Of a stretch of DNA of 12,121 nucleotides, positions 1,579 to 12,119 are shown in pieces; the stretch's first letter is position 1; the number at the start of each line of letters is the position of its first letter. The translations under genes and the position numbers were made by a program. The notes under the pieces were generated by a model. It was given only the letters and a program-made list of their open reading frames with translations. It was not told the DNA's origin and did not search any database. The stretch covers positions 1 through 12,121 of the forward strand of contig CAZYGU010000024.1 of the NCBI GenBank assembly GCA_964646785.1. Direction: 5' to 3'. This DNA comes from an uncultured Candidatus Saccharibacteria bacterium (GTDB lineage Bacteria; Patescibacteriota; Minisyncoccia; Phycocordibacterales; Zambryskibacteraceae).

Positions 1579-1607
1579 TTGACGCACCTGTGACTTGGTG
1601 CTAATTT
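1579..1607 (+). promoter_or_regulatory. Sigma70-type promoter: TTGACG, 17-nt spacer, TGcTAATTT (extended -10)
   Basis: -35 at 1579-1584, TG at 1599-1600, -10 at 1602-1607. It marks the start of the first GC-rich segment. Confidence 0.5.
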
Positions 1608-1644
1608 TCACGCAGAAACACTCACCCTTTAGCGGAGTTCATCT

Positions 1645-1959
1645 ATGCTATATCCTGTTGGGTATCTGCAAAACACCGCCACGAATCGGTACCATCCAAT
1701 CTTTTTTCGCCCTGCACCTGCGCCGAGTGAACGAAGTTCGGACAGTATGCATCGATATCGATCCAGCGGTCACCATACCAATGGATTCGATACTCTTGAG
1801 CTAGCTCAAGAGTGGATCAAAACCTGGACAAGAACAAAACCCGACATGGAGGATACTGGACTCGTCTGGCTATGGAACGGAGAAGGTGTGCCTGCCCTAA
1901 TGGAGTGGTTCACCAAGAAAACCACAGTCGAGCATCGCGAAGCAGTTACAGCTGGATAA
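1645..1959 (+). CDS. Hypothetical W-rich 104-aa protein. Coding status is uncertain.
   Basis: GGAG at 1634-1637, 7 nt before the ATG. The C-terminal half shows a G-first codon bias. The N-terminal half is compositionally odd (R/S/H/P-rich). The ORF contains a 22-bp perfect palindrome. Alternative frames are also open in this GC-rich stretch. Confidence 0.4.
   Translation: MLYPVGYLQNTATNRYHPIFFRPAPAPSERSSDSMHRYRSSGHHTNGFDTLELAQEWIKTWTRTKPDMEDTGLVWLWNGEGVPALMEWFTKKTTVEHREAVTAG
1792..1813. repeat. 22-bp perfect palindrome ACTCTTGAGCTAGCTCAAGAGT
   Basis: Read directly from the sequence. It lies inside ORF 1645..1959. Confidence 0.9.
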
Positions 1960-1978
1960 ATCTTGCGTTACGAACACC

Positions 1979-2010
1979 TAGCCGATACTCACATGTATCG
2001 GCTATTTTTT
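1979..2010 (+). terminator. Rho-independent terminator: stem tagccgatac / gtatcggcta, loop tcacat, then TTTTTT
   Basis: 10-bp perfect stem followed by T6, 20 nt after the stop at 1959. Confidence 0.7.
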
Positions 2011-2049
2011 ACAATAAAAAATCACACCCAACTCCCTTCTCACCCATAC

Positions 2050-2078
2050 TTGACAAATGCTATTTATTCTTCTATGAT
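2050..2078 (+). promoter_or_regulatory. Sigma70-type promoter: TTGACA, 17-nt spacer, TATGAT
   Basis: Consensus -35 at 2050-2055 and -10 at 2073-2078. AGGAG RBS at 2111-2115, 7 nt before the ATG at 2123. Confidence 0.55.
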
Positions 2079-2122
2079 AAATTTCAGCAGTTCTTCTTCA
2101 ACACAAACACAGGAGCTCGATC

Positions 2123-2782
2123 ATGCGAGAGAGTGTCTACGAACGCTATGGTGAGGACACCATGACACGTGGTGCGTTTTACTTCATCATCGGCTCGGTA
2201 CTCACGTACGGGTTCGTGGCAACCTACATTGCTTCGACCATGTCTGCGAACTGGATTCCGAGCGGATGGGCTATTTTGCTCGTCGGTTTGGGACTACCGA
2301 TTCTTGGGATTCTCTTGAGTGCTTCGAGCGGAAACCCGTTTCTCTCGTTCGTGGGTTTCAACCTCGTCGTCATTCCATTCGGACTGATCCTAGGACCCGT
2401 GCTTCAGCTATACCACATCGGACAACCGGGTGTTGTCGCAAAGGCTGCGACACTCACTGCGTGCGTCACTGGTGTGATGGCACTGTCTGGCACAATGTTC
2501 CCGAACTTCTACAAGTCGATCGGAGGTGCCCTCTTTGGTGCTCTCACGGCACTCGTCATCGTCAGTGTGGCGTCAATATTCATTCCGGCTCTTGCTGGAT
2601 TCACTGTGATCCACTACATTGCCGCGACCATCTTTGCGCTCTACATCGGATACGACATGTGGCGCGCAAGTGAGACTCCCGCTACGCTCGACAACGCAAT
2701 CGATGTGAGCGTCAGTTTGTATCTCGACATTCTGAACCTCTTTCTCCGGATTCTTTCCATTCTTGGAGATGCTGACGACTAA
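2123..2782 (+). CDS. Bax inhibitor-1 / YccA family (TMBIM-like) 7-TM membrane protein
   Basis: 219 aa with about seven hydrophobic helices. The C-terminal 'SLYLDILNLFLRILSILG' is the hallmark of the BI-1/YccA family. GC about 55%. Confidence 0.85.
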   Translation: MRESVYERYGEDTMTRGAFYFIIGSVLTYGFVATYIASTMSANWIPSGWAILLVGLGLPILGILLSASSGNPFLSFVGFNLVVIPFGLILGPVLQLYHIGQPGVVAKAATLTACVTGVMALSGTMFPNFYKSIGGALFGALTALVIVSVASIFIPALAGFTVIHYIAATIFALYIGYDMWRASETPATLDNAIDVSVSLYLDILNLFLRILSILGDADD

Positions 2783-2797
2783 CACAAGGAGAAAACC

Positions 2798-3172
2798 GTG
2801 AGCTCTGAATTCAAACAGTTCCTCGATACACTCAAGCGTTTAGGAATTGCACATGAGATGAACTGGCTGCCAAGCAAAGAGGAATGGCAACAGATTATCC
2901 TCGATGCGGGATACAACATTACCGCACTCGCGTGCACAGTGATCAGCGTCGGTGATATGGATTTCCTGTTCTGCAACTCATCTGTCATTTGGACTGATGA
3001 TGAACAGCCAATCGGTCCTTCTGGCCTTCTTCTTCTGTCTCGAAAAAAGTCAGGAGAGATCATCCCGCGAGTTCGATACAACGCAAGGGATGGCAGACAA
3101 GTGCCAAGTCAGAATCTTGATGCCATCAAGGCTCAATATCATCTGCAGGCTGAGACCTTGATGACCACCTGA
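2798..3172 (+). CDS. Hypothetical 124-aa protein with a GTG start, co-transcribed with the BI-1-family gene
   Basis: AAGGAG at 2786-2791, 6 nt before GTG 2798. The start lies 13 nt after the upstream stop. No recognisable family. Confidence 0.55.
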   Translation: MSSEFKQFLDTLKRLGIAHEMNWLPSKEEWQQIILDAGYNITALACTVISVGDMDFLFCNSSVIWTDDEQPIGPSGLLLLSRKKSGEIIPRVRYNARDGRQVPSQNLDAIKAQYHLQAETLMTT

Positions 3173-3188
3173 TGCAGTTTGAGTTATG

Positions 3189-3224
3189 AACCGCCTAGTA
3201 ACGAAAGTGAACGGCGGTTTTTTG
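3189..3224 (+). terminator. Probable intrinsic terminator: stem aaccgcc / ggcggtt, 17-nt loop, then TTTTTTGTTTG
   Basis: The hairpin starts 17 nt after the stop. The large loop lowers confidence. Confidence 0.45.
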
Positions 3225-3274
3225 TTTGCTAAAAGTTTATACAAAATATTTATCAATACTCTGTAGCTGAATTT

Positions 3275-3289: not shown

Positions 3290-3874
3290 ATGACAGATAC
3301 CACATGGAAGGAATATTTCGAAAATACGAAAAATAGTAATCCGAGACCCTTACTTACTAAAGCAGTTAAGTTAGTGCAAAAAAAGAACGAGGCACTTGAT
3401 CTTGGATCAGGAGCGTTTAATGACGTACACTTTTTATTATCTACTGGCTTTAATCATATCGTAGCAGTTGATAAAGTATCTGTTGCAAACGATCTATTAA
3501 AAAAACTATTACCAACACAAGTTTCTTATGTAATTTCTCGATTTGAAGATTTTGATTTTATCAAGCAAAACTATGATTTGATTAACGCACAGTATTCCCT
3601 TCCATTTATTAATAAACATAGTTTTACAGATGTGTATAAAAAAATAATACAATCACTTAAATCCGGAGGAGTTTTTACTGGCCAGTTTTTTGGTGATAGA
3701 GATGAGTGGAATACAGGAATTAGTAATATGACCTTTCATACCAAAAATGAAGCCTTAGCTCTACTTAAAGGATTGAATGTTATTGAATTTACTGAAGAAG
3801 AGAAAAATGGGAATACCGCAGCAGGAAAACTTAAGCATTGGCATGTTTTTCACTTTATTGCAGTAAAAGAATAA
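3290..3874 (+). CDS. Class I SAM-dependent methyltransferase, TehB-like
   Basis: 194 aa. Motif I 'ALDLGSGAFNDV', and overall length and order similar to tellurite methyltransferase TehB. Low GC (about 35%). Confidence 0.8.
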   Translation: MTDTTWKEYFENTKNSNPRPLLTKAVKLVQKKNEALDLGSGAFNDVHFLLSTGFNHIVAVDKVSVANDLLKKLLPTQVSYVISRFEDFDFIKQNYDLINAQYSLPFINKHSFTDVYKKIIQSLKSGGVFTGQFFGDRDEWNTGISNMTFHTKNEALALLKGLNVIEFTEEEKNGNTAAGKLKHWHVFHFIAVKE

Positions 3875-3889
3875 AACACAAAAGAAAAA

Positions 3890-3912
3890 GGGCGACGGAA
3901 ATTCCGTCGCCC
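3890..3912. terminator. Bidirectional intrinsic terminator: gggcgacgg-aaatt-ccgtcgccc, with T-tracts on both strands
   Basis: Perfect 9-bp GC stem. The minus strand is followed by TTTTTCTTTTGTGTTTT and the plus strand by TTGTACAATTTT. It sits between the convergent MTase and flotillin genes. Confidence 0.75.
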
Positions 3913-3953
3913 TTGTACAATTTTAAACTGGAGAAACACTACTGCGCCAATGA

Positions 3954-5783
3954 TTAGGCAGCGGGAGAAAGTTCAGACCGCTTCTCGGCCTGGTCGCGAA
4001 TAAGATTCGCGAGCAGAACGTTGACGAGTCCACCGCTCTGACTACCGTCACCACCGCCCGCCATGATGCTCGGGACGATAGGAACCTGACTCTTCGAGAG
4101 AGAGTCGGCAACCTGAATCAACGCGTAGTTGTTCGGGTTGATTGCTTCACCCTTCTTCTTGAGAACGTCGGCTTCGGCGTTACCAATAGCCTGGATCTTT
4201 CCGGCTTCGGCAGTACCAGTGAGCGTCGTCACCTCAGCATCAGCCTTGGCGTTGATTGTCTTCGACTGCGCGTCACCTTCCGCTGTCTTCACCATGGCGG
4301 AAGCGTTGAACTCGGCGATTTGCACGCTCCGTTCGGCATCCACGACTCGAGCTTGCGTATCCGCAAGTGCACGAGCTTGCTGAAGTTCCTTGCGGACCCC
4401 TTCAGCTTGCCGCTGAGTTTCGTACGTTACTTGCTCCTGCTCAGCGATTTTTCGGTCTGTCAGTGTCTTCATCAGCTGTTCTGGCGGAACGATATCACCG
4501 ATCAAGGTGTTCACCGCACCGACATTGTATTCACCGAGAGCATCCGCAATTGCCTTGCGTGCTTCGGTCTGACGTGCGACTCGATTCTTCAGGAAGTCGA
4601 TCACATCGGAACCCTGTGCCGCGTTTCGGAAATAGTTACCGATCGTCGGTTCGAGTACCTGCGTGACGAGATTCGCCACGCTGCCGAATCGTGCGATAAC
4701 CTTAGGGGCATCGACGCTCGGGATGTGAATGATCTGACTAACATCGAGGTTGTAGGTAAAGCCGTCCGATGAACGAACAGTGATGCTTGAGAGCCGCTCA
4801 TCGAGCTTGTGGGCTTCGCTCTTTTCGTTTGCCCAGTTGAGCACCACGTTTGCCGTCGGGACAACTTCGATCTTGTGAGTGTGCGTATTGATAGGGTACT
4901 TTCCCGGGTCAAGCGGAGTTGCCCAAACACCCTTATTGCCACTTTCCACCAGATTACCGTGCTTGAAATCTGCGCCAGAAATATCGTCACCGTTATTTCC
5001 TACGTAGGAAATAACGACGCCGACATGCGCGATAGGTACTTCGGTCAGACTGATGCGCTCCACCGTAGCGAAGAGCGGGTTGATAAAGTATCGACCCGCG
5101 AGCATCACCTGTTCCTGAAGACCCTTGTAACCTCCACCGTTGATGAACGCCTGGGCATCCTGGAACATGTTATGTCCAGAAATTTCCTTACCGGCAATTT
5201 CACCACCAACAAGTGGTAAGCCTTCCTTGGTGGTGACGATGCCAACCATCTTGTCGGCGATATCAGTCTGCTCAGCATCTCTGACATCGAAAAGCTGAGT
5301 ATTGATTCGATACGTACCTGGCGGAATAACTGCCAGCTGCGGACCACGCTCGCCACCGTTCGTGAGAAATGCTCGCGCGTTCTGAAATGAATCACACGCA
5401 ACGGAGGTACCGAGAACACGACCAGCAGCCATGGGAATACCGTCTCGTGAATCCACGACGCCGATCATTCCCTCCTTGATGGTCACGAAATCTTCCTGCT
5501 CGACACTATACTGCCAAGGCCACAAAAAGTAGTGGACACCGGGAGCTAGTGTATCGGCCTGAATACCAGCTTCGCCGTTCAATGCGACGATCTTACCGTC
5601 AGGCAAGGTCCGATTCGATCCGAAAATCACAAACTTCTTGTTGACGATACCGATCGAGTCATTCGGAATGATGACCACACCGAAGATGCGCAGAACGAGC
5701 TTGTAGCCACCGAGAAGCAAGATGATCAGAACGATCCACCAGTACGACTTCACGAGCCCAAAGAAAAAGTCCAGAACGTCCAT
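3954..5783 (-). CDS. Flotillin/SPFH (band-7) family membrane protein, YqiK/FloT-like
   Basis: 610 aa. N-terminal TM helix (WWIVLIILLLGGYKLVLRIFGVVII), an SPFH core, and a C-terminal Ala/Glu/Gln-rich coiled coil. The true start is the ATG at 5781-5783 with AAGGAG 8 nt upstream. The track start at 5873 is a TTG inside the -35 box. Confidence 0.9.
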   Translation of the reverse strand: MDVLDFFFGLVKSYWWIVLIILLLGGYKLVLRIFGVVIIPNDSIGIVNKKFVIFGSNRTLPDGKIVALNGEAGIQADTLAPGVHYFLWPWQYSVEQEDFVTIKEGMIGVVDSRDGIPMAAGRVLGTSVACDSFQNARAFLTNGGERGPQLAVIPPGTYRINTQLFDVRDAEQTDIADKMVGIVTTKEGLPLVGGEIAGKEISGHNMFQDAQAFINGGGYKGLQEQVMLAGRYFINPLFATVERISLTEVPIAHVGVVISYVGNNGDDISGADFKHGNLVESGNKGVWATPLDPGKYPINTHTHKIEVVPTANVVLNWANEKSEAHKLDERLSSITVRSSDGFTYNLDVSQIIHIPSVDAPKVIARFGSVANLVTQVLEPTIGNYFRNAAQGSDVIDFLKNRVARQTEARKAIADALGEYNVGAVNTLIGDIVPPEQLMKTLTDRKIAEQEQVTYETQRQAEGVRKELQQARALADTQARVVDAERSVQIAEFNASAMVKTAEGDAQSKTINAKADAEVTTLTGTAEAGKIQAIGNAEADVLKKKGEAINPNNYALIQVADSLSKSQVPIVPSIMAGGGDGSQSGGLVNVLLANLIRDQAEKRSELSPAA

Positions 5784-5844
5784 GAGGGTTACTCCTTTTG
5801 AATTGTGATGGTACAGGCCTGGATTTCTCCAGTTCCCGAGGATT

Positions 5845-5873
5845 TTATTAGCATTTATTTGACAAAAAGTCAA
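5845..5873 (-). promoter_or_regulatory. Sigma70-type promoter for the flotillin gene: TTGACT, 17-nt spacer, TGcTAATAA
   Basis: On the minus strand, the -35 is at 5873..5868 and the extended -10 at 5850..5845. The leader is about 55 nt. Confidence 0.5.
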
Positions 5874-5894
5874 TCATATATCATTTGTGTAACA

Positions 5895-5924
5895 TTGACA
5901 GATAGCCAAATGACGTGATATACA
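5895..5924 (+). promoter_or_regulatory. Sigma70-type promoter: TTGACA, 18-nt spacer, TGaTATACA
   Basis: -35 at 5895-5900 and extended -10 at 5916-5924. GAGGTG RBS at 5964-5969 before the ATG at 5975. Confidence 0.5.
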
Positions 5925-5974
5925 TTTTCGAGATTCCTTTGTCCCTGTTCCCTTCCCACACGTGAGGTGTCGAT

Positions 5975-6763
5975 ATGTTACAAAAGCTTATTCAGATCTT
6001 CTTTGGAACACCGAAGAAGAAGTCAAAGCCACCAAGAAAAGTCTACAGCGCCATTTCACCAACTAGTACCTCATCTGAAGCCAATCGAGAAACTTCATCA
6101 CCCATCGATCATCTGCGGCAGATGAGTGAAAAGCAACTCGAGCAAAGACGAAAGCAGGATGCTGAAGAGGCGGCTCATCGCGATGAACTACGTGAGCAAC
6201 TCAGATCGGCAGCAGATTTCAGTGCCTGCATCGAAATTTATCATGAAGCTTACGCAATGAGAGAGGATGAAGGTATTAGTACACTAGCACTCGAAAAAGC
6301 TCTCGCTCTTGCGACTACAGCTGAAGAGTTCCAAGTAGTATACGACTCAGCTGGCGACAGTGATCTTGAGAAGAAGGCAGCTGAAAAGCAGGAGCAAGTG
6401 TTTCTCGAGCGAATTGATCGAGCAACTACCACTTCAGAATGCATCGACATCGAAAACGAAGCAGACAATGACTTCAATTTGGAGATCGATGCTGATGCTG
6501 TGGTGAAAAAAGCTCTTTCACTCGCAACAAGCGCAAGTGATTGTCGTATCATTCTCGAGGATCGGGATTTTGATGATCCTGAGGACAACACTCTTCTTCG
6601 TGAGATCTACGAAAAAATGGTTTTGTTCTTTACCACAGTTGATGAATGTGAAGAACTGTGGGACGAAGAAGGAACAGACAGTATCGCAGGAACACTAGCA
6701 ATTGTTCGTGCGGCGGAAATCATTCGTTCCCAGTACATCACCGATCATCTCGCTCGCGCATAA
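5975..6763 (+). CDS. Hypothetical highly acidic protein with five internal repeats of about 35 aa
   Basis: 262 aa. Basic N-terminus (KKKSKPPRK), then a D/E-rich body. Repeats: ADFSACIEIYHE / TTAEEFQVVYD / TTSECIDIENE / TSASDCRIILED / TTVDECEELWDE. Divergent from the flotillin gene. Confidence 0.6.
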   Translation: MLQKLIQIFFGTPKKKSKPPRKVYSAISPTSTSSEANRETSSPIDHLRQMSEKQLEQRRKQDAEEAAHRDELREQLRSAADFSACIEIYHEAYAMREDEGISTLALEKALALATTAEEFQVVYDSAGDSDLEKKAAEKQEQVFLERIDRATTTSECIDIENEADNDFNLEIDADAVVKKALSLATSASDCRIILEDRDFDDPEDNTLLREIYEKMVLFFTTVDECEELWDEEGTDSIAGTLAIVRAAEIIRSQYITDHLARA

Positions 6764-6783
6764 CGAAGCAGATATATACAAAA

Positions 6784-6820
6784 GCCACCGTTCAGTACGA
6801 ACGATGGCTTTTTTCTTTTC
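6784..6820. terminator. Bidirectional intrinsic terminator: gccaccgttc-agtac-gaacgatggc, then TTTTTTCTTTTC
   Basis: 10-bp stem with one mismatch. Plus-strand T-tract; minus-strand TTTTGTAT. Lies between the convergent acidic-protein and ftsX genes. Confidence 0.75.
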
Positions 6821-6825
6821 TTGTA

Positions 6826-8846: not shown

Positions 8847-9722
8847 TTACAGATTTTTTTCTGCTTCCAAAAATTCTTCGATATCTCCCTCGAGTACAGC
8901 ATCAATGTTTGCGGTTTCTGCATTTGTTCGGTGGTCTTTCACCATTTTATATGGATGCATAACATATGAACGAATTTGATTCCCCCATTCGATCTGAGTC
9001 GTCTTTGATACGTACATTCCCTTCTCTTGCGCGATTCTATCTTCTTCCATTTTCTTATACAGTTTTCCAGTCAGGATTGCGATTGCTTTTTCTTTATTTT
9101 GAGCTTGTGAACGTTCGCTCGTGACATGTGCAGATAGATTGGTCGGAACATGTATAACACGCACTGCCGTCTCACGTTTATTTACGTTTTGGCCACCAGG
9201 TCCACCGGATTTTGAAAGTTCAACACGGATATCAGATTCAGGAATATCAATCTCACCCGTTTTTTCAAATTTAGGAATTACTTCAACAAGCGAGAAGGAA
9301 GTGTGTCTTAGTTGTTTTGCATTAAAAGGTGAGATACGAACAAGACGATGTACTCCTGATTCGTTTTTTAGTGTGCCATATGCATCCTTGCCAGAAATTT
9401 CAATTGTTACATTACGATACCCTCCATGATCATTTTGATTTTCATGAAGAAGTGTTATTCCCCAGTTTCTCTTTTGAAAATATTTCATATACATCTGAAG
9501 AAGAATTGCTGAAAAATCTTCAGAATCATCACCCCCCGCACCAGAAAAAATTGTCATGATTGCATCACCTCTATCAAACTTTCCTACACCCGCTATCTCA
9601 TCTTTCAATGTTTGAATATCACGAATTGTTTTTTGTGCTTTTTCTTTATCATTCCAAAAATCAGCAGACATCATATCTGCCTCCATCTGTTCAAGTTGTT
9701 TTTGCTTTACTTCTTTGTCCAT
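8847..9722 (-). CDS. prfB: Peptide chain release factor 2 (compact form without a frameshift leader)
   Basis: GGQ motif (SGGPGGQNVN) and the RF2-specific SPF motif (RISPFNAK). 291 aa. It begins at the residue equivalent to E. coli RF2 position 27. Confidence 0.9.
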   Translation of the reverse strand: MDKEVKQKQLEQMEADMMSADFWNDKEKAQKTIRDIQTLKDEIAGVGKFDRGDAIMTIFSGAGGDDSEDFSAILLQMYMKYFQKRNWGITLLHENQNDHGGYRNVTIEISGKDAYGTLKNESGVHRLVRISPFNAKQLRHTSFSLVEVIPKFEKTGEIDIPESDIRVELSKSGGPGGQNVNKRETAVRVIHVPTNLSAHVTSERSQAQNKEKAIAILTGKLYKKMEEDRIAQEKGMYVSKTTQIEWGNQIRSYVMHPYKMVKDHRTNAETANIDAVLEGDIEEFLEAEKNL

Positions 9723-9745
9723 ATAATCTTAACGGTATAACGAAA

Positions 9746-9766
9746 GCCCGCTCTTGTGAAGCGGGC
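9746..9766 (-). other. GC hairpin (gcccgct-cttgtga-agcgggc) 23 nt upstream of the prfB start codon
   Basis: 7-bp GC stem. On the minus strand it is followed by TTTCGTTAT. Possible attenuator or 5'-UTR structure. Confidence 0.4.
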
Positions 9767-9951
9767 CGGAATGTACTGTGATAGTGGTAAGGGTGTTGAA
9801 GGTGTGGGTCAAAAAAATTGCTGTTTGTGGGTGAACGTCTCAAATGAGAACGATCGAGAAACTGAAAGGCAATTAAGATGACCAACCTTGCAACAACGAT
9901 ACTACTATCAATGTTCCGGGTTAATTATAGCAAGAAGACGCTTTCTGTCAA

Positions 9952-10331: not shown

Positions 10332-10536
10332 AACTGTTCGAACATCATCGACCATGACCCGAAGGTTCAAATGGATCGATAAGGTCACGGCTGGCAGCTG
10401 GGTAAAATCCCCCAACCATGCAGACCTGTGCCCCAAACAGTTACCCTTCCTTCAATCGTCACTGAAGAAAAGGTGGAACCAGTATGATATTTACAACTAA
10501 AGAAATCAAGGAGTCGTCTCACCTACTACGTTCGTG

Positions 10537-10609
10537 AGCCACCTCGCGGGATCGAACCGCGGACCCCCACTTTACGAAAGTGGTGCTCTACCAACTGAGC
10601 TAAGGTGGC
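10537..10609 (-). tRNA. tRNA-Thr (anticodon CGU)
   Basis: Cloverleaf: acceptor GCCACCT/AGGTGGC, D-arm GCTCAGTTGGTAGAGC, anticodon loop TTCGTAA, T-arm CGCGGTTCGATCCCGCG. No CCA is encoded. Confidence 0.85.
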
Positions 10610-10631
10610 AATAAAAACCAATCGCAATTTT

Positions 10632-10707
10632 TGGAGCCGTTGAGCAGGATTGAACTGCTGACCTCGTCATTACCAATGACGTGCTCTACCAACTGAGCTA
10701 CAACGGC
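10632..10707 (-). tRNA. tRNA-Thr (anticodon GGU), CCA encoded
   Basis: Acceptor GCCGTTG/CAACGGC, anticodon loop TTGGTAA, T-arm AGCAGTTCAATCCTGCT, 3' TCCA. Confidence 0.9.
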
Positions 10708-12046: not shown

Positions 12047-12047
12047 G

Positions 12048-12119
12048 CGCGGCTGATGGGTGCTGACCCCACGGCCTCTCGCGTGACAGGCGAGTGCTCT
12101 ACCGTTGAGCTACAGCCGC
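12048..12119 (-). tRNA. tRNA-Asp(GUC)-like, with an atypical T-loop
   Basis: Acceptor GCGGCTG/CAGCCGC, D-arm GCTCAACGGTAGAGC, anticodon loop CTGTCAC, discriminator G. The T-loop reads GTCAGCA rather than TTCRANT. Confidence 0.55.

What the first reader, a model, noticed from the sequence alone, without database searches (positions are those of the whole stretch)
3890..6820. Insulated divergent pair: flotillin/SPFH protein and a novel acidic Cys-repeat protein
A 610-aa flotillin-like protein (minus strand) and a 262-aa very acidic repeat protein (plus strand) diverge from a 190-bp control region at 5784-5974. The pair is bracketed exactly by two strong bidirectional terminators (3890-3912 and 6784-6820). 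Bacterial flotillins normally pair with an NfeD-family partner in the same operon (yqiJK, yuaFG). Here no NfeD is present, and the partner is instead an unrelated acidic repeat protein. This may be a new flotillin-associated module.
Basis: partly seen in the sequence, partly recalled or inferred. Interest (0 to 1): 0.6.

Follow-up and report, generated by a model that had tools for sequence, protein, structure and literature searches.

The report
Flotillin gene with new acidic partner
A membrane-scaffold (flotillin-like SPFH) gene sits back to back with a gene for an undescribed, very acidic, membrane-tethered helical-repeat protein. Relatives of that protein lie next to flotillin-type genes in 9 of 10 other informative genome contexts, so it is probably a new flotillin accessory protein of ultra-small (Patescibacteria/CPR) bacteria.

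Summary
An SPFH/Band_7 gene (3954-5783, minus, 609 aa) and a 262-aa acidic repeat gene (5975-6763, plus; pI 4.5, net charge -25) diverge from a 191-bp region, and real terminator hairpins bracket the pair. No ORF tested in the window has an NfeD domain.

The acidic protein matches no Pfam, NCBIfam or PADLOC family. A profile search found 117 cluster representatives. Its own subfamily has four parts:
- an N-terminal TM helix, or an amphipathic plus polybasic N-terminus
- a flexible linker
- 35-residue TPR/PPR-like helical hairpins (AF2 pLDDT 89.7)
- a conserved C-terminal motif, TVEECxExWxxxGxDSxxGxxAICRAAEIIR

In 9 of 10 informative contexts a subfamily member lies within two genes of an SPFH gene. 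There are four gene arrangements with different flanks, and two SPFH subfamilies with no detectable similarity to each other. Four of these loci also carry an NfeD-like gene, so the protein is an additional partner, not an NfeD replacement. This SPFH subfamily has no recurrent neighbour in 16 genomes from other phyla. Its GC3 of 0.59 against 0.22-0.36 for host genes suggests horizontal acquisition.

Physical interaction and mechanism are inferred, not shown.

The parts
3888..3914 (.). Terminator hairpin shared by the convergent SPFH gene (minus) and methyltransferase gene (plus). The U-tract is good only on the minus strand.
   Evidence: 12-bp stem with 8 GC pairs. dG is -22.3 and -22.8 kcal/mol, shuffle z -5.2 and -6.2. 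Sequence read.
3954..5783 (-). Long flotillin-like SPFH gene (609 aa). It has an N-terminal TM segment (about residues 13-35) and tandem beta-rich modules of about 75 aa (residues 99-172, 173-248, and a partial copy at 249-312). These are followed by a Band_7 domain (about 278-461) and a long C-terminal Ala/Glu/Gln-rich helical region.
   Evidence: Band_7 E=5e-27. No Flot hit, and NCBIfam FloT 20 bits against a 700 cut-off. PDB sequence hits: QmcA 3.8e-6 and Flotillin-2 C-terminal region 1.2e-3. Internal duplication z=20. More than 8000 homologues, the best 120 at 55-94% identity across phyla. GC3 0.59 against host 0.22-0.36.
5784..5974 (.). Divergent control region (191 bp). It holds a sigma-70-like promoter for the SPFH gene (-35 at 5901-5896, -10 TATGAT at 5878-5873). 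A TTGACA at 5896-5901 faces the acidic gene. Shine-Dalgarno-like sequences precede both genes.
   Evidence: Promoter scan. Sequence. 95% identical to the same region of relative L001, although the acidic protein is only 79% identical.
5859..5909 (.). Two copies of the palindrome TTGAC-N5-GTCAA (5859-5873 perfect; 5895-5909 with one mismatch), 36 nt apart. They are candidate operators or back-to-back -35 boxes.
   Evidence: These are the only two matches with at most one mismatch in the 12-kb window, where 0.72 are expected for the whole window. The same perfect palindrome sits in the independent divergent SPFH/acidic intergenic region of L026/L027. Repeats listed.
5975..6040 (+). N-terminal membrane-association segment of the acidic protein: an amphipathic helix MLQKLIQIFFG followed by the polybasic stretch TPKKKSKPPRK (residues 1-25 have net charge +7).
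   Evidence: AF2 predicts a helix at residues 2-10, with mean pLDDT 84 for residues 1-10. Hydrophobic moment 0.48. In 16 of 27 subfamily members this position is a TM helix followed by a K/R cluster.
5975..6763 (+). Gene for the 262-aa acidic helical-repeat protein. It consists of a membrane anchor, a disordered Ser/Thr/Pro linker (residues 11-43), a long charged helix (44-78), and five 35-residue helical hairpins (79-261) that end in the subfamily's conserved C-terminal motif.
   Evidence: No Pfam, NCBIfam or PADLOC hit. Profile search found 117 cluster representatives. AF2 pLDDT 89.7, pTM 0.74. Fold searches return only generic TPR/PPR/designed solenoids. Most conserved positions are C225, W229, D235, A242, I243, R245 and A246.
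6780..6823 (.). Terminator hairpin and U-tract shared by the acidic gene (plus) and the convergent ftsX gene (minus).
   Evidence: dG -16.2 kcal/mol on the plus strand with UUUUUUCUUUUCUU, and -20.8 on the minus strand. Shuffle z -5.1 and -6.1. Sequence.

Best explanation
The pair is a two-gene membrane-microdomain module of a Patescibacteria (CPR)-type bacterium.

Gene 1 encodes a long flotillin-like SPFH scaffold, anchored by one N-terminal TM segment. From its charge distribution I infer that its bulk lies in the cytoplasm. It was probably acquired horizontally.

Gene 2 encodes a lineage-specific accessory protein. It is tethered to the cytoplasmic face of the membrane, here by an amphipathic helix plus a polybasic patch and in most relatives by an N-out/C-in TM helix. 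A flexible linker carries a strongly negative TPR/PPR-like alpha-solenoid.

The proposed mechanism is that the solenoid docks on the flotillin assembly through its conserved C-terminal repeat. There it would act as an adaptor or regulator: recruiting or holding clients, or tuning oligomerisation, alongside NfeD where NfeD exists. The shared promoter region, with paired palindromes, would co-regulate the two genes.

Shown: the domain content, the fold prediction, the membrane-anchor pattern, the conserved gene adjacency and the atypical composition of the SPFH gene.

Inferred: topology, physical interaction, adaptor role and co-regulation.
For: Conserved adjacency. Nine independent subfamily members (separate clusters at 50% identity) lie within two genes of an SPFH gene.
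- Divergent from a long SPFH: window/L001, L026/27 (P0124), L031 (P0138).
- Upstream of a long SPFH on the same strand: L040 (P0168) and L044 (P0132; SPFH 56% identical to the window's).
- NfeD-like > Band_7+Flot flotillin > acidic: L030/41/42 (P0144) and L033 (P0133).
- The same with one extra gene: L032/45/46.
- Acidic > NfeD-like > flotillin: L038 (P0137).

Flanking genes differ between these loci.

Two SPFH types. The long SPFH and the canonical flotillin show no significant similarity (BLASTP E=0.21). L038 and L040 share an orthologous M50-protease > acidic context (M50 61% identical) but carry different SPFH types downstream. Adjacency was therefore kept while the SPFH type changed.

Membrane anchor. 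In 16 of 27 members the N-terminus is a TM helix followed by 2-6 K/R. In 8 it is amphipathic plus basic. This places the acidic domain on the cytoplasmic face, where bacterial flotillin and the NfeD OB domain sit (PMC11222466).

Fold. The model is a confident alpha-solenoid, a fold class typically used for protein binding. The strongest conservation is in the last repeat.

Regulation. The control region is 95% conserved against 79% for the acidic protein. A TTGAC-N5-GTCAA palindrome is shared with the independent locus L026.
Against: - No experiment or complex prediction shows contact between the two proteins.
- Only 10 informative contexts could be sampled, out of the 117 family representatives. 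All appear to come from one superphylum, so some adjacency could be inherited rather than selected.
- One member on a 25-kb contig (P0131, L035) has no SPFH gene within 6 kb. The more distant relative P0003 has none.
- Spacers between the acidic gene and the neighbouring SPFH-module gene are about 125-265 nt, so there is no translational coupling. An operon is not demonstrated in the co-directional loci.
- The partner SPFH types share no detectable sequence similarity. A common docking surface would therefore have to be structural, or the link could run through a third factor.
- The palindrome is absent from the third divergent locus, L031, and may simply be overlapping -35 boxes.
Confidence: 0.6

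Rival explanations
1. The two genes are neighbours through shared ancestry or chance and have no functional link. The acidic protein would be one of many lineage-specific CPR repeat proteins with an unrelated role.
For: The wider repeat family is diverse. Its less acidic branch (P0003) lies in an island with HEPN_AbiU2, Fic, SocA_Panacea and NYN genes and has no SPFH gene. P0131 lacks an SPFH neighbour. Spacers of about 125-265 nt allow independent transcription.
Against: Nine of 10 informative contexts have an SPFH gene within two genes. They show four arrangements, different flanks and two unrelated SPFH subfamilies, including a swap of SPFH type at an otherwise orthologous locus. With one or two SPFH genes per roughly 1000-gene genome, I estimate the chance expectation at below 1% per gene.
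Confidence: 0.12
2. The acidic protein is functionally linked to flotillin but is not a structural adaptor. It could be a client or cargo held in the flotillin microdomain. It could be a polyanionic holdase. It could link flotillin to membrane proteolysis (M50 or FtsH).
For: A small M50 protease gene precedes the acidic gene in L038 and L040. A trypsin-like protease gene follows it in L033. A BI-1/YccA-type gene, named 'FtsH-binding integral membrane protein' by one source, lies 1.2 kb from the SPFH gene in the window. Flotillin stabilises unfolded clients in S. aureus (PMC11222466).
Against: The protease neighbours are seen in only two or three loci, and L038 and L040 are related to each other. 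There is no BI-1 hit among the Pfam families shown for neighbours of the long SPFH in other phyla. Nothing separates this reading from the adaptor model with present data.
Confidence: 0.15
3. The acidic protein functionally replaces NfeD.
For: The window has no NfeD. Like short NfeD proteins, the acidic protein is a small membrane-anchored protein with a cytoplasmic domain, encoded next to the SPFH gene.
Against: Four loci carry an NfeD-like gene, a canonical flotillin and the acidic gene together. The long SPFH subfamily shows no recurrent NfeD neighbour in 16 other genomes, which also lack the acidic family. The fold is all-alpha, not an OB barrel.
Confidence: 0.06
4. The acidic protein is a PPR-like nucleic-acid-binding protein or a DNA mimic (anti-restriction type), unrelated to membranes.
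For: The family profile matches a designer PPR protein (6een, E=1.3e-11). The repeats are 35 residues long and align in register with it. One family member gave a weak ArdA hit at 0.0018. The protein is strongly acidic.
Against: - Each single PPR repeat match is weak (independent E 0.1-0.24). No natural PPR or Pfam PPR/TPR model is matched.
- A net charge of -30 on the repeat domain argues against RNA binding.
- The conserved membrane anchors and SPFH adjacency do not fit a soluble DNA mimic.
- There were no viral-contig hits.
Confidence: 0.04

Closest known systems
Bacterial flotillin operons nfeD-floT/floA (B. subtilis yuaF-yuaG and yqeZ-yqfA, E. coli yqiJ-yqiK, S. aureus nfeD-floA)
   Same: A membrane-anchored SPFH scaffold is encoded next to a small membrane-anchored accessory protein whose soluble domain faces the cytoplasm. 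Four related loci found here are nfeD-like > flotillin operons that carry the acidic gene as an extra member. Background comes from PMC2636767 and PMC11222466.
   Different: In the window there is no NfeD, and the genes diverge instead of forming one operon. The SPFH protein lacks a detectable Flot domain and has a 230-residue N-terminal expansion. The accessory protein is an acidic alpha-solenoid, not an OB-fold protein.
SPFH subfamilies without an NfeD partner (SPFH3, 4 and 6-12 of Hinderhofer et al. 2009, PMC2636767) and horizontally acquired orphan SPFH genes such as PaFlo8/9 of P. aeruginosa (PMC13086221)
   Same: The long SPFH family is a stand-alone gene with no conserved neighbour in 16 genomes of other phyla. 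It shows signs of horizontal transfer: 59-74% identity across phyla including an archaeal MAG, and atypical GC3 in the window.
   Different: In the Patescibacteria-type loci it has a recurrent neighbour, the acidic repeat gene. I could not assign it to one of the numbered subfamilies, because their models are not available here.
TPR / PPR / HAT / Sel1-type alpha-solenoid repeat proteins
Flotillin-associated rhodopsin (FArhodopsin, PMC10308929)
   Same: It is a precedent for a lineage-specific protein family recognised through conserved genomic linkage to a flotillin gene in bacteria with streamlined genomes. I saw only the title and the start of the abstract.
   Different: It is an unrelated protein type (a seven-TM rhodopsin) in other lineages (SAR11 and similar). 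I did not read the paper in detail.

Membership tests
SPFH / Band 7 superfamily (for the 609-aa protein) | SPFH (Band_7, PF01145) domain above the curated threshold | tested here: met
   95.5 bits against a cut-off of 23.6, E=5e-27. PDB sequence hit to QmcA at 3.8e-6.
SPFH / Band 7 superfamily (for the 609-aa protein) | N-terminal hydrophobic membrane anchor | tested here: met
   A hydrophobic stretch, WWIVLIILLLGGYKLVLRIFGVVII, lies at about residues 15-39. No dedicated TM predictor was available.
Canonical bacterial flotillin (FloT/YqiK, SPFH2) | C-terminal flotillin domain (Pfam Flot PF15975) or an NCBIfam FloT equivalog score | tested here: not met
   No Flot hit at E<=0.01. NCBIfam FlotScfldFlot scored 20.4 bits against a cut-off of 700. 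Only a weak match to the Flotillin-2 C-terminal helical region, E=1.2e-3. The flotillins in L030, L032 and L033 do hit Flot.
Canonical bacterial flotillin (FloT/YqiK, SPFH2) | Operon with an NfeD gene | tested here: not met
   No NfeD hit in 18 window ORFs. NfeD does not recur among neighbours of 16 family members in other phyla.
Canonical bacterial flotillin (FloT/YqiK, SPFH2) | Assembly into large membrane-attached oligomers or cages | not testable with these tools
   The monomer AF2 model was poor (pLDDT 61.9). No multimer prediction was available.
NfeD (for the 262-aa protein) | C-terminal OB-fold NfeD domain (PF01957) | tested here: not met
   No Pfam hit for the window protein, and NfeD is not among the families listed for the 118 members. 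The AF2 model is all-helical.
TPR/PPR-type helical repeat proteins (for the 262-aa protein) | Tandem helix-turn-helix repeats of 34-35 residues forming a solenoid | tested here: met
TPR/PPR-type helical repeat proteins (for the 262-aa protein) | Match to a curated TPR, PPR or Sel1 sequence model | tested here: not met
   No Pfam hit for the window protein. Single TPR_7 and HEAT hits occur in 1 of 118 members each. Only a designer PPR consensus is matched by the family profile, and the per-repeat E-values are weak.
Proposed flotillin-associated acidic repeat subfamily (defined here) | N-terminal TM or amphipathic/polybasic anchor, acidic ATTxEEC repeats, and the C-terminal motif W-x3-G-x-D-S/T-x2-G-x2-A-I-x-R-A-A-E/D-I-I | tested here: met
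   The window protein has MLQKLIQIFFGTPKKKSKPPRK at its N-terminus, five repeats, and WDEEGTDSIAGTLAIVRAAEIIR.
Proposed flotillin-associated acidic repeat subfamily (defined here) | Encoded within two genes of an SPFH gene | tested here: met
   Window: divergent, 191 bp apart. Nine of 10 informative contexts overall.
Known anti-phage defence systems | Match to a PADLOC model | tested here: not met
   No PADLOC hit for either protein. No relatives on viral contigs.

The most novel reading that the evidence does not exclude
The acidic, membrane-tethered alpha-solenoid is a previously unrecognised, Patescibacteria-specific core subunit of flotillin assemblies. It would bind a structural feature common to very different SPFH cages and so define a CPR-specific membrane-microdomain system. 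Such a system could, for example, organise the cell-surface or transport machinery that these episymbionts depend on. The partnership would be strong enough to survive replacement of the SPFH scaffold by a horizontally acquired, unrelated subfamily.
Probability: 0.3. Interest if true: 0.75.

Novelty: new variant of a known kind. Interest (0 to 1): 0.6.

Why it matters
NfeD is the only recurrent operon partner of bacterial flotillins that I found in the literature I could search. What flotillin scaffolds do, and how their clients are chosen, is still debated.

A second accessory family gives a concrete, testable handle on SPFH cage function. It is unrelated to NfeD, is conserved next to two very different SPFH subfamilies, and has a protein-binding solenoid tethered to the membrane. 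It also sheds light on membrane organisation in the uncultivated, genome-reduced Patescibacteria, where every retained gene pair is informative.

The finding assigns a context-based function to a repeat family absent from Pfam (117 clusters at 50% identity). It also documents an SPFH subfamily that moves between phyla.

Tried and rejected
- The word-indexed homologue search for the acidic protein gave only 3 hits. Repeating it with a 27-sequence alignment gave 4. Only the exhaustive profile search was useful.
- The search for related loci with the 27-sequence alignment failed because no stretch was conserved enough. A 9-sequence alignment gave 3 metagenome loci and no viral loci.
- AF2 of the SPFH protein with 50 homologues was poor (pLDDT 61.9; the SPFH domain was below 50). 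I did not use it for fold search.
- Defence-system reading: rejected, since neither protein has a PADLOC hit.
- NfeD-in-disguise reading: rejected.
- Metal- or redox-active 'Cys repeat' reading: unlikely. In relatives the repeat position is filled interchangeably by C, F, Y, W or L, for example in P0127, which fits a buried hydrophobic core position.
- Taxonomic naming of the window through cluster look-ups gave no names for its own proteins. The Patescibacteria assignment rests on three indirect points: P0003 (Zambryskibacteria), the S7 cluster of L038 (Paceibacterota), and a 71%-identical SPFH named Parcubacteria.
- A shared operator in all three divergent loci: only two of three have the TTGAC-N5-GTCAA palindrome.


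Full report
**1. Observation**

The window holds a minus-strand ORF ending at 3954. Its real start is the ATG at 5783-5781, preceded by GGAG, which gives 609 aa (identical to database protein P0004). A plus-strand ORF at 5975-6763 encodes 262 aa.

The pair is bracketed by two hairpins.
- Hairpin 3888-3914 has 12 pairs. Its dG is -22.3 kcal/mol on the minus strand and -22.8 on the plus strand, with no shuffle folding as well. It has a full U-tract only on the minus strand.
- Hairpin 6780-6812 has dG -16.2 on the plus strand, followed by UUUUUUCUUUUCUU. On the minus strand it has dG -20.8, followed by UUUUGUAU.

The 262-aa protein has 22% D+E, pI 4.5 and net charge -25. It has five repeats of about 35 residues that start A(T/S)(T/S)xx(E/D)C. 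Cys is at the equivalent position in four of them. The only corrections are 609 aa rather than 610, and that the first terminator is not equally good in both directions.

**2. The SPFH protein**

Pfam finds a Band_7 domain only in the middle of the protein, at about residues 278-461 (E=5e-27). There is no Flot domain. The NCBIfam FloT model scores 20 bits against a cut-off of 700. PDB sequence matches are to QmcA (3.8e-6) and, weakly, to the C-terminal helical region of Flotillin-2.

Between the N-terminal hydrophobic anchor and the Band_7 domain lie tandem beta-rich modules of about 75 residues. Residues 99-172 and 173-248 align with z=20, and 249-312 is a partial copy with z=6. Relatives of about 680 aa carry one more copy.

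The family is very large. All 8000 scored candidates were significant, and the best 120 hits are 55-94% identical to the query. They include proteins named for Betaproteobacteria, Acidobacteria (Vicinamibacterales), Bacteroidetes and Parcubacteria. A scan of one genome per species returned 16 loci at 59-74% identity, from Bacteroidota, Ignavibacteriota, Planctomycetota and others, and one MAG labelled Methanoregulaceae.

In those 16 loci no neighbour is conserved beyond close relatives. NfeD does not recur among 79 flanking ORFs, and there is no relative of the acidic protein. This fits the published picture: several SPFH subfamilies have no NfeD partner (PMC2636767), and SPFH genes are often acquired horizontally (PMC13086221).

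In the window the SPFH gene has GC 0.53 and GC3 0.59. The clearly resident genes (ftsX, ftsE, prfB, pyrF) have GC3 0.25-0.31, and the acidic gene has 0.39. The SPFH gene therefore looks like an import placed beside a more native acidic gene. That last step is an inference.

**3. The acidic protein**

It has no hit in Pfam, NCBIfam (one below-threshold FkbH match, E=0.056) or PADLOC. The word-indexed search found only itself, a 79% relative, and a 30% relative from Candidatus Zambryskibacteria.

An exhaustive profile search of 1.84 billion cluster representatives found 117 with E<=1e-3. No Pfam family recurs among the 118 sequences scanned. The family splits into two groups.

- Subfamily (a) contains the window protein. 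It is very acidic (D+E 0.20-0.25) and ends in a conserved motif, TVEECxExWxxxGxDSxxGxxAICRAAEIIR. Positions C225, A242 and A246 are invariant, and W229, D235, I243 and R245 are at least 90% conserved. Its N-terminus is a TM helix immediately followed by 2-6 K/R in 16 of 27 members. In 8 of 27, including the window protein (MLQKLIQIFFGTPKKKSKPPRK, net +7 over residues 1-25), it is a short amphipathic helix followed by a polybasic stretch.
- Subfamily (b) includes the Zambryskibacteria protein. It is less acidic, lacks the C-terminal motif, and starts with a different conserved N-terminal segment.

The interchange of a TM helix and an amphipathic/polybasic segment at the same position, with K/R on the C-terminal side, implies a particular placement. 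The acidic domain should be held at the cytoplasmic face of the membrane. This is an inference from the positive-inside rule.

AF2 with the 118-sequence alignment gives a confident model (pLDDT 89.7, pTM 0.74). It shows a helix at residues 2-10, a disordered segment at 11-43, a long charged helix at 44-78, and five helical hairpins through to 261.

So the fold is a TPR/PPR-like alpha-solenoid and the protein is not a member of any curated repeat family. The repeat Cys is replaced by F, Y, W or L in relatives, which fits a core packing position rather than a metal or redox site.

**4. Genomic context: the decisive test**

Informative contexts for subfamily (a) were as follows.

| # | Member and locus | Arrangement |
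|---|---|---|
| 1 | Window and its 79% relative L001 | Divergent from the long SPFH |
| 2 | P0124, L026/L027 | Divergent from a 683-aa long SPFH (59% identical), 192-bp spacer, different flanks (DoxX, FGGY kinase, BipA) |
| 3 | P0138, L031 | Divergent from a long SPFH (67% identical), 206-bp spacer |
| 4 | P0168, L040 | M50 protease > acidic > long SPFH (63% identical) |
| 5 | P0132, L044 | Acidic > long SPFH (633 aa, 56% identical) |
| 6 | P0144, L030/41/42 | NfeD-like > flotillin (Band_7+Flot, 557 aa) > acidic |
| 7 | P0133, L033 | NfeD-like > flotillin (565 aa) > acidic |
| 8 | P0130/P0239, L032/45/46 | NfeD-like > flotillin > 181-aa carbonic-anhydrase-like > acidic |
| 9 | P0137, L038 | M50 protease > acidic > NfeD-like > flotillin (604 aa) |
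| 10 | P0131, L035-37 | No SPFH gene within 6 kb on a 25-kb contig |

Two further members were uninformative because their contigs end next to the gene (P0134 and P0125). The subfamily (b) protein P0003 lies between a Fic gene and a ClpP gene and has no SPFH neighbour.

The NfeD-like assignments are weak. E-values are 1e-4 to 6e-4, below Pfam's threshold, but they recur at the expected position in four loci.

The long SPFH and the canonical flotillins are not detectably similar (BLASTP E=0.21). The long-SPFH HMM does not hit the canonical flotillins at 1e-5.

L038 and L040 share an orthologous M50 > acidic context (M50 61% identical) but have different SPFH types downstream. This is most simply read as replacement of the scaffold while the acidic neighbour was kept.

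I estimate that with one or two SPFH genes per roughly 1000-gene genome, fewer than 1% of genes would lie within two genes of one by chance. Nine of ten is therefore far beyond chance. The varied arrangements argue against mere inherited synteny.

**5. Lineage**

Named relatives point to Patescibacteria/CPR.
- P0003 is from Candidatus Zambryskibacteria.
- The S7 protein encoded in L038 clusters with Paceibacterota and 'Patescibacteria group' proteins.
- A 71%-identical SPFH is named 'Parcubacteria group'.

The window's own proteins carry no taxon names. No relative was found on viral contigs.

**6. Control region**

The 191-bp region is 95% identical to that of L001, while the acidic protein is only 79% identical. 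It contains a sigma-70-like promoter for the SPFH gene. It also holds two copies of TTGAC-N5-GTCAA, 36 nt apart. These are the only matches with at most one mismatch in the whole 12-kb window, where 0.72 are expected for the entire window.

The same perfect palindrome occurs in the independent divergent spacer of L026/L027, and twice in intergenic regions downstream of the L033 operon. It is absent from L031. It may be an operator for co-regulation, or simply back-to-back -35 boxes.

**7. Mechanism**

Established background comes from PMC11222466 and PMC13086221. Bacterial flotillins are N-terminally anchored, and their SPFH and coiled-coil parts are cytoplasmic. They form large oligomers or cages. 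The cytoplasmic OB domain of NfeD binds them and stabilises oligomers.

My best-supported reading is as follows. The acidic protein is an additional accessory subunit or adaptor. It is tethered to the inner face of the membrane and can reach the flotillin assembly through a flexible linker. It would bind the assembly through the conserved last repeat of a protein-binding solenoid. Its strongly negative surface could engage basic segments of clients or of the scaffold.

I put the functional partnership at about 0.8 and the specific adaptor mechanism at about 0.4, and give 0.6 for the combined statement.

Rivals and their weights:
- No functional link (0.12).
- Linked, but as a client, holdase or protease-related factor (0.15).
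- NfeD replacement (0.06), contradicted by co-occurrence with NfeD.
- Nucleic-acid binder or DNA mimic (0.04), contradicted by charge, membrane anchors and context.

**8. Comparison and novelty**

The module works like an nfeD-flotillin pair, but it is not one. The SPFH protein fails two defining tests for canonical flotillin (Flot domain and NfeD operon). The partner fails the NfeD test.

I found no paper linking flotillin to such a protein. These searches cover only open-access full text, and no Pfam family covers the protein. I rate it a new variant of a known kind: a flotillin module with a new, lineage-specific accessory family.

**9. Limits**

- Only ten informative contexts were sampled, all apparently from one superphylum.
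- No interaction data or multimer model exists.
- The NfeD-like calls are weak.
- The taxonomy of the window itself is indirect.
- The SPFH monomer model was unusable.

Noticed in passing
window 5859-5873 and 5895-5909; L026 7891-7905; L033 8415-8429 and 10098-10112: The palindrome TTGAC-N5-GTCAA occurs twice, 36 nt apart, inside the divergent control region. These are the only matches with at most one mismatch in the window. It recurs in the equivalent spacer of an independent locus and in intergenic regions near another flotillin operon, but not in L031. It could be an operator or overlapping -35 boxes.
   Followed up: partly
window 1600-3250 and 3954-5783: GC3 is 0.59 for the SPFH gene, 0.61 for the BI-1/YccA-type gene (2123-2782) and 0.51 for the 124-aa ORF (2798-3172). 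Resident genes have 0.22-0.36. This suggests one or more horizontally acquired segments. One source names the BI-1 family 'FtsH-binding integral membrane protein', which is of interest next to an SPFH gene.
   Followed up: partly
window 3290-3874: A SAM-methyltransferase gene with very low GC (0.32; GC3 0.22) sits between the 124-aa ORF and the SPFH terminator. It is absent from the otherwise syntenic relative L001, so it is a recent insertion or deletion. It gave a weak PADLOC mad2 hit (5e-6).
   Followed up: partly
window 3954-5783 (protein residues 99-312): The N-terminal part of the SPFH protein contains tandem duplicated beta-rich modules of about 75 residues (z=20 between copies). Relatives of about 680 aa carry an extra copy. 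AF2 models this region better (pLDDT 78-89) than the SPFH domain itself (below 50).
   Followed up: partly
L010-L025, especially L020: The long SPFH family is 59-74% identical across very distant phyla, including a MAG labelled Methanoregulaceae (74%). It has no conserved neighbours, which implies frequent inter-phylum transfer of a stand-alone gene.
   Followed up: partly
L038 2044-6627 versus L040 2-2740: The two loci share an orthologous M50-protease > acidic-protein context (M50 61% identical). One continues with NfeD-like plus canonical flotillin, the other with the long SPFH type. This looks like an in-situ swap of the scaffold.
   Followed up: partly
L002-L009 (acidic-family homologue at L002 10001-10843): The less acidic branch of the repeat family (P0003, Zambryskibacteria) lies in a variable island with HEPN_AbiU2, RhuM/Fic, SocA_Panacea, NYN, LexA-methylase fusion and HNH genes. 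This is a toxin-antitoxin or defence-like neighbourhood with no SPFH gene.
   Followed up: no
window 8847-9722 and 9723-9951: The release factor 2 gene encodes only 291 aa, and the PCRF profile is matched from position 96 onward. It is preceded by a leader of about 200 nt with a hairpin, downstream of a perfect TTGACA-16-TATAAT promoter (9951-9924). I did not check whether there is an N-terminal frameshifted exon.
   Followed up: no
window 10536-10707, 12047-12119 and 1550-2120: There are two tRNA-Thr genes (CGT, GGT) and one tRNA-Asp gene. The stretch 1550-2120 holds no convincing gene (its only long ORFs, a 104-aa one at 1645-1959 and a 117-aa one at 1812-2165, have no family hits) and carries a near-consensus promoter (2050-2078) ahead of the BI-1 gene.
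   Followed up: no
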